A DNA stretch of 64,000 nucleotides from Chrysomallon squamiferum (lineage: Eukaryota; Animalia; Mollusca): positions 20,026,001 to 20,090,000 of the forward strand of contig CM022679.1 of NCBI GenBank assembly GCA_012295275.1, given 5' to 3'. Positions 33,301 through 36,300 of the stretch are shown in pieces. How positions within the stretch are numbered: the first letter of the stretch is position 1; each line of letters starts with the position of its first letter. The notes beneath the pieces were generated by a model that had not been told where the DNA came from, did not search any database, and was given only the letters and a program-made list of their open reading frames with translations. Position numbers and translations under genes: made by a program.

Positions 33301-36300
33301 TGTAGGGGTATCAAGCTCAGTTCAGTAACAATTCAGTATAGAGGTATAGAAGGATTGACCCTACAACCCACCAGTCCCATCAGGAAATGCCATTACTAGT
33401 TAGCTAAAGCCCACTGCAAGTAGAAACAAAGTACTTTTAAGCCTATAAATAGGCTGAACTGATATTTCAGAATCTACTAGCGAATAGGTCATTAACATGA
33501 GAACTGATAAATTTTGAGTAAAACTGTATTTTGCTGATAAAAGTTTGGCAGGTGATTCATTTCCCTCTTTTTATATTTATTTATCTGTTTATTTAATTTA
33601 TTATTATTATTTAGTTTATAAGAATTATATTACATAATAGAAAAATAATCTACATTTGAATTATACATATCAGATATATAAAACTTTAAGAGAGCAATCA
33701 TTACTAGTATTTTAGATTTATAACGATAATGAAAATGTTCATAGTGACCTAATTTCTTTTACCTTTTTCTAGGTCACTTGAAATTTTTGGAAGGTCACCT
33801 TATGTTTAGAACTATAATTAGAAACAACTTTTCTTCTTCACTCAGTGAAGTATAGCCTACTTAAAATATAGAATTTTAGTGAATGATTATATGCTTATGT
33901 ATATGCTTATATATATATAGTAGACTTTAGCTAATTTTATCTATGCAACAGTATTATATGCAATTTACAATAATAATTTAAGTCAAAATCAGCACAAACT
34001 TCACCAGTAGCACAAGCCAGTAAAGAATAATACACTTCTAGAAGCATATTTAATAAGCTGGAGTATTAATAAACCTTCAACACAGCCATTTCAAAGCTTC
34101 TGATATTTTGTAGCAGGATGGTTATTTTGTGATGGTACAGATAACTGCAAAACGGTCAACAGTCTAGCTTAAGCCAGGTATAATTTAGATTATATTTATG
34201 TAAATTAGTAAGAATCTTCTAACTATAAATATAAAGAGAAAAAACAAAAACAAGATTAGCATTTAAATATTTTAAATTTTAAATTTTAAATTTACCTACC
34301 ATTTCAAAACAAAATCAATTTAAAAATAAGAGATGGTTATTTGAATTGTTATAAGATAAACCAAAACTATATTAAACATAAAAAATAAAGGCCTATATTT
34401 AAGAAGTTAAGTTTTTGGTAACTTTCTTCAAATCTAAAGTTTTGAAATTTTGATCAAAGGACATGATATAAAGGGATAATATATTTGATGCCATCTGAAT
34501 AATTCTTTTGATAACTGGACCAGTTATCTTTTAATATTGTAATTTGTTAAAATCACATATTACTAATAATCTTTCTTTATGTTAGTTATGTTTTAAGCTT
34601 GCATATTTTACAAGATTTTACACATGCTGTTTTCACTGATTGTGGGTGATGACAAAACTAGCAAAAAAAACAACAAAAAAACATTCCACCAAATAAAAAT
34701 AAAGAAACAGCTAATAAGGGATCAACTTCTTGACAATATTACACACAATACATCCAAAATATGAACCCAGCTGTCCAATATAGCTTAAAATAATTCTACC
34801 ATTTAAAGATTTTTAATACTTTTGACCTGAGTTAAACACATCTATACAAAGTGGAGTTAAAGCAACAACTTTCCATTCCACAAAAGATAAGAGAATATAA
34901 AACAAAATGTTTCAAAATAATTTACTTGAAAAACCAGAAAGATAACCATAATACTGAATGGTAGGTTTGCATTATTGTGTTTTTTAATTACTGAAAAACT
35001 ACATTTTTGTTTTGCTTTAATATTTTCTTAAACTTTAATCAGATTTATAAATTGCAAAATAGTATAATTTTGGGATGTTTTTTTGTTGTTGTTGTTGCTG
35101 TTTTTTGTTTAGTGAATGAGTAAAAGCTGAATTATTTTGAAGGTGTGTTTCAGAAGTATTAAATAACACCATTGATGTCACAGTCTCGGTCACGGTGTGC
35201 TAACTATGGGTTAGTGAGATAAACATCCTGTTCGCTAGATAAATACTTATATTCATCTACTTTTATCTCTTCAGTGAAATAACCTCCTCAAGGATGCTTG
35301 CCAATTTCTGCATCAGAAACATTTCTTATTTCCTGAAACTGCCAACTTCGTGATCTACATATGTAATTGTGATCAAAAATAGTAATCAGTTTTCTTCATG
35401 TTTAATACTAAGGACATGTTGTAAACATTTAGTAAGTAGATTTTTTTAAATTTATGAATGGGGTGGGCCATATAACTGGATTAATAGTATTTTAGTGTAT
35501 CAAAAAAAAACCATGATTTTATCCATTTAAAACATATGATGCTAAGTGAAATACCATTGGTTCAGTTTGTTATTAAAGACAAAAAAAAAATCAGACCACT
35601 TTGGCATTTACTAATTATTACAATCCAAAATAAATTTAAAACATTTTTAATTGTTTAATAATGTTGATACAGTGAAACATTTTCATGACAAGTCGGCATT
35701 TTCAGATAATAACCAAAATTTGTTTTCACTTACAACAAAGGTGGAGAAATTGCAGAGAGTATTTCACTCAAGAGACTAACAAAGATGGTTAAGTTGTTTA
35801 TTATTCACTGGTCAGTTAAAATTCAACAAATGTTGGTTAAAACTAATAAAAGATATACAATAAACTAATGCTAATACATTTTTTCCAACCAGGTTCTGGT
35901 TAAAAGAAAACAGACAAAGATTAAAATAAAGAAAGAAGAAAACTTAAAATACTGATTCAGACACTAATACGGGAAAGCAAGCAGCAATAGGATAAATACT
36001 GTCTTACCAAGGGTGTTTGAATATGTATCACTGATCCAACTCATTTCACGCTCACCCGTGCCCATATCTGGGGCCGGGACGTCGATACCTGCGCCTTGTA
36101 GAAAAAGCAAACAACTCGTGAGCACACACAAATATAACTACATGCTTCATGTTTTATTATTGTACATACCCAGTGTGTTAGCATATGCATCTGATATCCA
36201 AGCCATTTCTCTCTCTCCTGTTCCCATATCTGGAGCAGGTACATCTGTACCTGGCCCTAAGTACACAAAAGTTAATTTTTCACAGAATTGTGAAAGAACA

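What the first reader, a model, noticed from the sequence alone, without database searches (positions are those of the whole stretch)
36008..36256. Tandem duplicated, probably mutually exclusive active-site exons in glutamate dehydrogenase
Seen: two 87-nt phase 1-1 exons encode the same PAPDMGT segment and differ at 5 of 29 residues (P/A, T/I, A/S, A/T, A/S). Many synonymous positions differ, and both exons have intact splice sites. The intervening intron is only 75 nt, with a branch-like GCTCAC whose A lies at intron position 51. Established: this segment contains the catalytic Asp of the GDH PAPD motif, and a donor-to-branch distance of about 50 nt or less sterically prevents joining in classic mutually exclusive pairs such as alpha-tropomyosin. 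Including both exons stays in frame, so NMD cannot enforce the choice. Inference: an old duplication kept by selection yields two GDH isozymes from one gene, like pyruvate kinase M1/M2, possibly switched by tissue, hypoxia or osmotic state.
Basis: partly seen in the sequence, partly recalled or inferred. Interest (0 to 1): 0.78.

Follow-up and report, generated by a model that had tools for sequence, protein, structure and literature searches.

The report
Either-or exon pair in snail GDH
This animal's glutamate dehydrogenase gene, likely that of a snail, carries two intact old copies of one 87-base exon, also seen as two annotated protein versions in a vent snail and four abalones, so it likely makes two enzymes with the same catalytic loop that may differ in how they are regulated; only the second copy was seen spliced in RNA here.

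Summary
In detail: two 87-nt phase 1-1 exons (A 36256-36170, B 36094-36008), intact splice sites, 75-nt intron, 5 of 29 residues different, synonymous sites saturated. RNA contigs show B spliced alone in 3 of 3 RNA runs laid (one study); A was not seen spliced, nor an A-B join. The pair is old: RefSeq isoforms X1/X2 of Gigantopelta aegis and four Haliotis species differ only in this exon and sort into A-type and B-type. The same exon is doubled in malacostracan gene models; Mytilus swaps the next exon instead. The catalytic loop is identical in A and B; differences flank it, and A-types lose a near-invariant Thr beside the leucine-binding Asp, so a regulatory difference is likelier than a catalytic one (inference). 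Steric exclusion is borderline (51 nt, branch point unmapped). An upstream intronic element complementary to exon A's start is a new, modestly significant lead. This is a new member of a known kind, closest to OGDH 4a/4b. I found no paper and no earlier scan note on GDH; the scan noted similar pairs in other enzymes.

The parts
36170..36256 (-). Exon A (upstream copy, 87 nt, phase 1-1); A-type, matches Gigantopelta isoform X2 and the P2/A19 abalone isoform; minor or silent in the RNA laid
36095..36169 (-). 75-nt intervening intron, the shortest of the gene's 12 introns (the other 11 are 248-4440 nt)
36118..36123 (-). Branch-like GCTCAC; candidate branch A at 36119 (intron position 51); run X5 reads GCTCAT; predicted, not mapped
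36008..36094 (-). Exon B (downstream copy, 87 nt, phase 1-1); B-type; spliced to both neighbours in 3 of 3 RNA runs laid
37162..37185 (-). Intronic element complementary to the first 27 nt of exon A (22 Watson-Crick pairs, predicted helix probability about 0.54); candidate silencer of A; conservation untested
37621..37821 (-). Constitutive upstream exon (201 nt); its 3' end is the loose end joined to exon B in RNA contigs
31479..31567 (-). Constitutive downstream exon (89 nt); single in this window, but the exon that differs between Mytilus isoforms
39011..39437 (-). First coding exon (likely mitochondrial targeting peptide plus N-terminus)
27306..30943 (-). Remaining eight coding exons (30943-30845, 30207-30067, 29721-29584, 29335-29255, 28715-28592, 28098-28007, 27758-27696, 27425-27306), no duplicates found

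Best explanation
Two intact tandem copies of the 87-nt exon that carries the PAPD loop sit in one mitochondrial glutamate dehydrogenase gene and are likely used one at a time, B as the main form seen in RNA and A as a likely minor or tissue-restricted form, giving two 553-aa enzymes predicted to differ in regulation more than in catalysis. Shown: exon anatomy, constraint on both copies, B-only splicing in the runs laid, and A-type/B-type isoform models in five other gastropods. Inferred: the duplication predates the split of neomphaline snails and abalones. Joining A to B is probably blocked by the 75-nt intron (donor to predicted branch point 51 nt), and A may be held down by default by an upstream intronic element that can pair with its first 27 bases. 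The A form loses the Thr next to the leucine-binding Asp on the helix at the subunit contact, so leucine activation or hexamer-core contacts are the likeliest functional difference. I put about 0.85 on either-or use, 0.5 on the steric block, 0.25 on the pairing element and 0.4 on a regulatory difference.
For: RNA contigs: loose ends at both edges of B match the upstream exon end and the downstream exon start in X1, X2 and X3, depth 240, 992 and 358, with no joint between A and B (read). Selection: 14.75 synonymous differences in 20.2 sites against 9.25 in 66.8 non-synonymous sites, Fisher p 4e-7; 9 of 11 fourfold sites differ; no indel. Relatives: Gigantopelta aegis X1/X2 (550 aa each) differ at 8 residues, all in this exon; three distinct Haliotis pairs covering four species differ at 7, all in this exon. 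Window B is 1-2 residues from the other B-types and 6-7 from their A-types; window A is 3-4 from other A-types and 6-7 from their B-types. In the tree gastropod A-types and B-types each form one side of a branch (73/48 and 89/91). The exon equals human GLUD1 G216-I244 and bovine 8AR7 219-247; bovine D241 binds leucine at a three-subunit contact and human D185A loses leucine activation (PMC9570180). The next residue is Thr in 280 of 287 animal-type copies fetched; 4 of the 7 exceptions are gastropod A-type isoforms. Pairing element: matched or beaten by 3 of 1000 dinucleotide shuffles and 11 of 2000 synonymous recodings of A.
Against: Exon A was not seen spliced: depth 0 in X2 and X3, and in X1 only a depth-7 contig continuous with the upstream intron; the three runs are one study, tissue unknown, and are contigs that drop rare forms. 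RefSeq X1/X2 are predicted models whose read support I could not see. AU tests on 29 columns do not reject separate duplications in peltospirid-type snails (p 0.345) or abalones (p 0.109). The 51-nt distance is not below the <50 nt criterion. The pairing element is 1 best case of 22 exon-intron pairs (p 0.005, about 0.11 after correction), 8 of 150 shuffles reach it gene-wide, and its longest perfect run is 6 nt. Two A-type residues (Thr4, Ala19) occur in other animals' GDH records that carry one copy of the segment, so they may be neutral. The AlphaFold model has pLDDT about 51-53 across this helix. PMC9570180 passages name D241 but not the adjacent Thr.
Confidence: 0.8

Rival explanations
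1. Exon A was once functional but has recently fallen silent in this species; only B is used and A is a young relic.
For: No spliced A in 3 of 3 RNA runs laid. A-types evolve faster than B-types (3-6 differences among species against 0-3). A has a weaker pyrimidine tract than B (11 vs 14 of 17).
Against: A is intact, only 3 residues from Gigantopelta X2, with donor and acceptor scores in the range of the constitutive exons. Contigs from one study cannot show absence.
Confidence: 0.1
2. Both exons are used one at a time, but the two enzymes are functionally equivalent; the pair persists because each copy is needed in the cells that splice it (splicing subfunctionalisation).
For: The catalytic loop is identical; the changes are mostly small (A/S, A/T); Thr4 and Ala19 occur in other animals' single-segment records.
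Against: Type-specific residues (P/A at 2, A/S at 19, non-T/T at 24) are kept in all six gastropods examined, and loss of the Thr is otherwise rare.
Confidence: 0.3
3. A is a cassette exon included together with B, giving a 29-residue internal repeat.
For: Co-inclusion is in frame. Four malacostracan gene models carry both copies in one protein.
Against: No A-B joint in the runs laid; none of the 8 gastropod isoform records has two copies; the crustacean records are automatic genome predictions; a repeat inside the catalytic domain would likely break the fold (inference).
Confidence: 0.04
4. The second copy is an assembly artefact or a second allele.
For: None.
Against: Run X5 spans both exons in one contig with 2 differing letters; the copies differ at 24 of 87 bases; both types occur in five other species.
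Confidence: 0.01

Closest known systems
Vertebrate OGDH mutually exclusive exons 4a/4b (PMC7969005; abstract start and 7 passages seen)
   Same: Mitochondrial dehydrogenase at the 2-oxoglutarate node with an either-or exon pair and a restricted intervening intron; the choice alters sensitivity to a regulator (Ca2+).
   Different: OGDH branch points are mapped at 25-41 nt from the donor and far from the acceptor; here the site is predicted at 51 nt in a 75-nt intron, and the functional effect is untested.
RefSeq GDH isoform pairs X1/X2 of Gigantopelta aegis (XP_041362670.1, XP_041362671.1) and Haliotis asinina, cracherodii, rufescens, rubra
   Same: Same exon, same A-type and B-type signatures, equal-length proteins; 92-93% identity to the window's protein for Gigantopelta.
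   Different: They are automatic annotations with no description found in print; their introns could not be fetched.
Pancrustacean GDH records with the same exon doubled (Armadillidium vulgare and nasatum, Trinorchestia, Homarus americanus; unnamed pair P0011/P0285)
   Same: Same 29-residue segment in two versions; P0011 and P0285 differ at 8 residues, all inside it, and P0285 also replaces the conserved Thr.
   Different: Different diagnostic residues; they do not group with gastropod A or B in the tree, but common origin of first copies is not rejected (p 0.29).
Mytilus GDH isoforms X1/X2
   Same: Equal-length isoforms differing in one exon-sized segment of the same domain (5 residues).
   Different: It is the next exon (89 nt here), which is single in this window.
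Pyruvate kinase M1/M2 exons 9/10 (PMC3498831, search listing only; allosteric effect recalled)
   Same: Metabolic enzyme with two isozymes from one gene by an either-or exon.
   Different: Its tissue switch and kinetic effect are established; neither is known here.
Docking-site/selector control of mutually exclusive exons (PMC6071210, first fifth of text read; PMC4691838, 12 passages)
   Same: A long-range intronic pairing could steer the choice.
   Different: Here the predicted partner is the exon itself, it is specific for A, and conservation is untested.

Membership tests
Mutually exclusive exons from tandem duplication | Neighbouring homologous exons of equal length and phase with intact splice sites | tested here: met
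   87 nt each, phase 1-1, AG/GT, 63 of 87 bases identical
Mutually exclusive exons from tandem duplication | Both copies under purifying selection | tested here: met
   pS 0.73, pN 0.14, p 4e-7; each copy has close counterparts in five other gastropods
Mutually exclusive exons from tandem duplication | Each exon found alone in transcripts | tested here: inconclusive
   B alone in 3 of 3 RNA runs; A in none. Both types exist as predicted isoform records in relatives.
Mutually exclusive exons from tandem duplication | Never included together | tested here: inconclusive
   No A-B joint, but A was barely covered and contigs show presence, not absence
Steric-hindrance class | Donor-to-branch-point distance under about 50 nt | tested here: inconclusive
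   Predicted branch A at position 51; threshold from PMC5740500 and PMC7969005; branch point unmapped; the mollusc threshold is unknown
NMD-enforced class | Co-inclusion or skipping shifts the frame | tested here: not met
   All four combinations stay open
Docking-site/selector class | One docking site pairs with a selector at each exon | tested here: not met
   The element is A-specific: for B, 825 of 2000 synonymous recodings align as well and 300 of 2000 pair as well
Docking-site/selector class | Conserved pairing with compensatory changes across species | not testable with these tools
   No orthologous gastropod intron could be fetched
Animal mitochondrial GDH (GLUD1-like) | ELFV_dehydrog_N domain, PAPD loop, full-length open frame with antenna-type C-terminus | tested here: met
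   PF02812; 553 aa, 71-93% identity to six mollusc GDHs; exon aligns with solved mammalian GDH chains
Allosterically distinct isozymes (OGDH 4a/4b or PKM1/2 type) | Measured difference in regulator response | not testable with these tools
   Needs enzyme assays

The most novel reading that the evidence does not exclude
Invertebrate GDH has repeatedly acquired a splice switch for allosteric control: separate tandem duplications of two neighbouring exons (this exon in vetigastropod/neomphaline snails and in crustaceans, the next exon in mussels and an annelid) retune the helix that builds the leucine site and hexamer core, giving leucine-sensitive and leucine-insensitive enzymes from one gene. 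In this snail the minor exon is masked by an intronic antisense element that pairs with the exon itself.
Probability: 0.2. Interest if true: 0.72.

Novelty: new member of a known kind. Interest (0 to 1): 0.5.

Why it matters
GDH links amino-acid, ammonia and energy metabolism and is widely assayed in molluscs and crustaceans as one enzyme from one cDNA (for example PMC3355100, passages seen). If two enzymes with different regulation come from one gene, gene-level expression and bulk activity data mix them. The pair gives a natural, five-residue test of the leucine site, which was mapped in a mammalian GDH only in 2022 (PMC9570180). Repeated duplication of two adjacent exons in several phyla is a testable case of convergent splicing. 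As an architecture it is familiar, and databases already hold the isoforms unremarked.

Tried and rejected
Third sense copy of the exon or duplicates of other GDH exons in the window: none. No whole genome is held. A search with exon A's frame returned mainly flatworm, bryozoan and bacterial GDHs sharing single residues, not A-type orthologues. A metagenome scan for the genomic exon gave 10 loci, all with one copy in the DNA held; 5 of them (L001, L004, L008, L009, L010) span both neighbouring exons and are truly single, and none is gastropod-like. Local fold of 35980-36290 is unremarkable (z 0.21). A shared docking site for A and B, suggested by dinucleotide shuffles (0 of 100 each), was rejected for B by synonymous recoding. 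A partner for B in the downstream intron was rejected (60 of 600 recodings as good). Tigriopus P0001 has two PAPD segments but each with its own flanks, so it is two genes merged, not a doubled exon. The AlphaFold model was too uncertain over the exon for contact claims; no fold search or complex job was run. Five paper look-ups (two papers on the leucine and inhibitor sites, tried by DOI and PMC id, and one on Dscam exon 17) were not held, and no source was found for the catalytic Asp or for short-intron limits in invertebrates; those points are recalled. No supplements were read; lists of mutually exclusive exons in supplements (for example of PMC5740500) or in subscription papers could mention GDH.

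Full report
Observation. They differ at 24 bases and at 5 of 29 residues. The intron is 75 nt and the A of GCTCAC is at position 51. It is the only YTNAY site in the 60 nt before B's acceptor, and the other 11 introns of the gene are 248-4440 nt. A alone, B alone, both or neither all keep the frame. No third sense copy exists in the window. With either exon the gene encodes 553 aa.

Organism. The closest named protein is Gigantopelta aegis GDH, 77% identical over the first 115 residues and 92-93% overall. The window is therefore likely a related neomphaline gastropod; this is inference.

Selection. Between A and B there are 14.75 synonymous differences in 20.2 sites and 9.25 non-synonymous steps in 66.8 sites (Nei-Gojobori counting; Fisher p 4e-7); 9 of 11 fourfold sites differ and there is no indel. 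Synonymous sites are saturated, so no exact dN/dS can be given, but a long-dead copy is excluded.

RNA. Four RNA runs of one study and one run of unknown kind hold the locus. Three RNA runs and the unknown run were laid on 35950-36300. In X1, X2 and X3 a contig covers B exactly, at depth 240, 992 and 358, with loose ends that match the end of the upstream exon and the start of the downstream exon. So B is spliced with A skipped. Exon A has depth 0 in X2 and X3; in X1 it lies on a depth-7 contig that runs on into the upstream intron. No joint links A and B. X5 spans both exons in one piece, which rules out an assembly error. These are contigs, which drop rare forms, so A's use in this species is neither shown nor excluded.

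Relatives. RefSeq isoforms X1 and X2 of G. aegis are both 550 aa and differ at 8 residues, all within this exon; X1 is B-type and X2 is A-type. Three distinct isoform pairs, covering Haliotis asinina, rubra, rufescens and cracherodii, differ at 7 residues, all within the exon. Window B is 1-2 residues from other B-types and 6-7 from other species' A-types; window A is 3-4 from other A-types and 6-7 from their B-types. In a 27-row tree gastropod A-types and B-types each form one side of a branch, with support 73/48 and 89/91, but AU tests on 29 columns do not reject separate duplications (p 0.345 and 0.109). One old duplication is favoured, not proven; that the neomphaline-abalone split is Palaeozoic is recalled. 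These records are predicted models; I could not see their read support.

Recurrence. Gene models of Armadillidium vulgare, A. nasatum, Trinorchestia and Homarus contain the same segment twice in tandem, and two unnamed 552-aa proteins of one cluster differ at 8 residues, all inside it. Mytilus edulis and M. galloprovincialis isoforms instead differ at 5 residues in the next exon, and one Mytilus and one Dimorphilus model carry part of that exon twice. In 5 of 10 metagenome loci that span both neighbouring exons the exon is single with the same boundaries; by peptide these look insect-like and bryozoan-like. The exon is thus ancient and doubled only in some lineages. Whether gastropod and crustacean pairs share an origin is open (p 0.29 for first copies together).

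Protein consequence. The exon matches human GLUD1 216-244 and bovine 8AR7 219-247. Positions 5-18, which include the PAPD Asp (catalytic role recalled; one search gave no source), are identical in A and B. Differences fall at human 217, 219, 234, 239 and 241. Bovine D241 (human D238) binds the activator leucine at a three-subunit contact, and the human D185A mutant is not activated (PMC9570180, first two of five parts read). Window exon A has Ala there. Position 219 is also substituted in human GLUD2 (I219V, no special effect listed; PMC11050691 table passage). Against a strong effect, Thr4 and Ala19 occur in other animals' records with one copy of the segment. An AlphaFold model puts the last three differences on helix 219-234 of the Gigantopelta A form, but at pLDDT about 51-53. 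A regulatory difference is therefore a reasoned guess.

How exclusivity may be enforced. NMD cannot do it. Steric interference is defined as under about 50 nt from donor to branch point (PMC5740500 passages; PMC7969005 passages); 51 nt is borderline, and invertebrates splice very short introns (recalled; one search found no source). A scan for long-range pairing found an element in the upstream intron, 37185-37162, that forms 22 Watson-Crick pairs with the first 27 nt of exon A and ends at A's first base; its predicted probability in a 1451-nt fold is about 0.54. It pairs with A at 7 of the 8 positions where A and B differ in that stretch (read). It is reached by 3 of 1000 shuffles and 11 of 2000 synonymous recodings scanned over the whole intron, and it is the best of 22 exon-intron pairs (p 0.005, about 0.11 corrected); gene-wide 8 of 150 shuffles reach it. 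For B the signal vanishes under recoding, so this is not a shared docking site. It could mask A by default, fitting B's dominance, or be chance or an inverted relic.

Literature and earlier notes. Searches for GDH with mutually exclusive, duplicated or splice-variant exons listed nothing on this pair, judged from titles and abstract starts. A review of animal GDH forms describes vertebrate variants only in the passages seen (PMC5192433). The two shrimp cDNAs are described as one truncated and one full (PMC3355100 passages). PMC12650449, PMC10652781 and PMC4691838 were seen as passages and PMC6071210 as its first fifth. The library lacks most subscription journals and no supplements were read. 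The scan's earlier notes hold no GDH case but several similar pairs in other enzymes and channels.

Verdict. A real, conserved, probably mutually exclusive exon pair: a new member of a known kind, already present but unremarked in RefSeq. Extra interest comes from its recurrence across phyla, the A-specific change beside the leucine site and the candidate masking element. Interest 0.5.

Noticed in passing
P0045/P0122, P0126/P0127, P0121/P0131, P0124/P0129, P0130 (Mytilus); P0436 (Dimorphilus): The exon after the PAPD exon has two versions in Mytilus (5 residues differ) and appears partly twice in one Mytilus and one Dimorphilus gene model: a second likely either-or pair in GDH.
   Followed up: partly
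P0002, P0003, P0153, P0154: Four malacostracan GDH gene models include both copies of the segment, probably annotation errors that hide an either-or pair.
   Followed up: partly
P0293 residue 223: Gigantopelta isoform X1 has Val where 284 of 287 copies have Glu (GERE motif); possible assembly error or real variant.
   Followed up: no
window 36118 and 36009: Run X5 differs at two letters: one turns the branch-like GCTCAC into GCTCAT (still YTNAY), one is synonymous in exon B.
   Followed up: no
window 36171: The depth-7 unspliced contig of X1 ends one base short of exon A's donor; chance or a trace of processing there.
   Followed up: no
window 36008-36094 vs 36170-36256: Exon B has GC3 0.52 and 6 CpG, exon A 0.24 and none; the other 11 coding exons range 0.17-0.49. 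May reflect splicing signals in B.
   Followed up: no
window 37090-37290: GC-richer island (34% against 23% for the intron) around the antisense element, with no other copy in the window.
   Followed up: partly
window 88-1662 (-): Uninterrupted 525-codon open frame, Ser/Asp-rich with a hydrophobic end; no Pfam family above cut-off.
   Followed up: partly
window 17440-17751 (-), 51489-51800 (-): Leucine-rich-repeat exon (CNOT6-like by recall) and a tetraspanin exon.
   Followed up: partly
window 22185-22424 (+), 60510-60827 (+): Coding-looking frames without Pfam hit; the first resembles mitochondrial ribosomal protein L1 by recall only.
   Followed up: no
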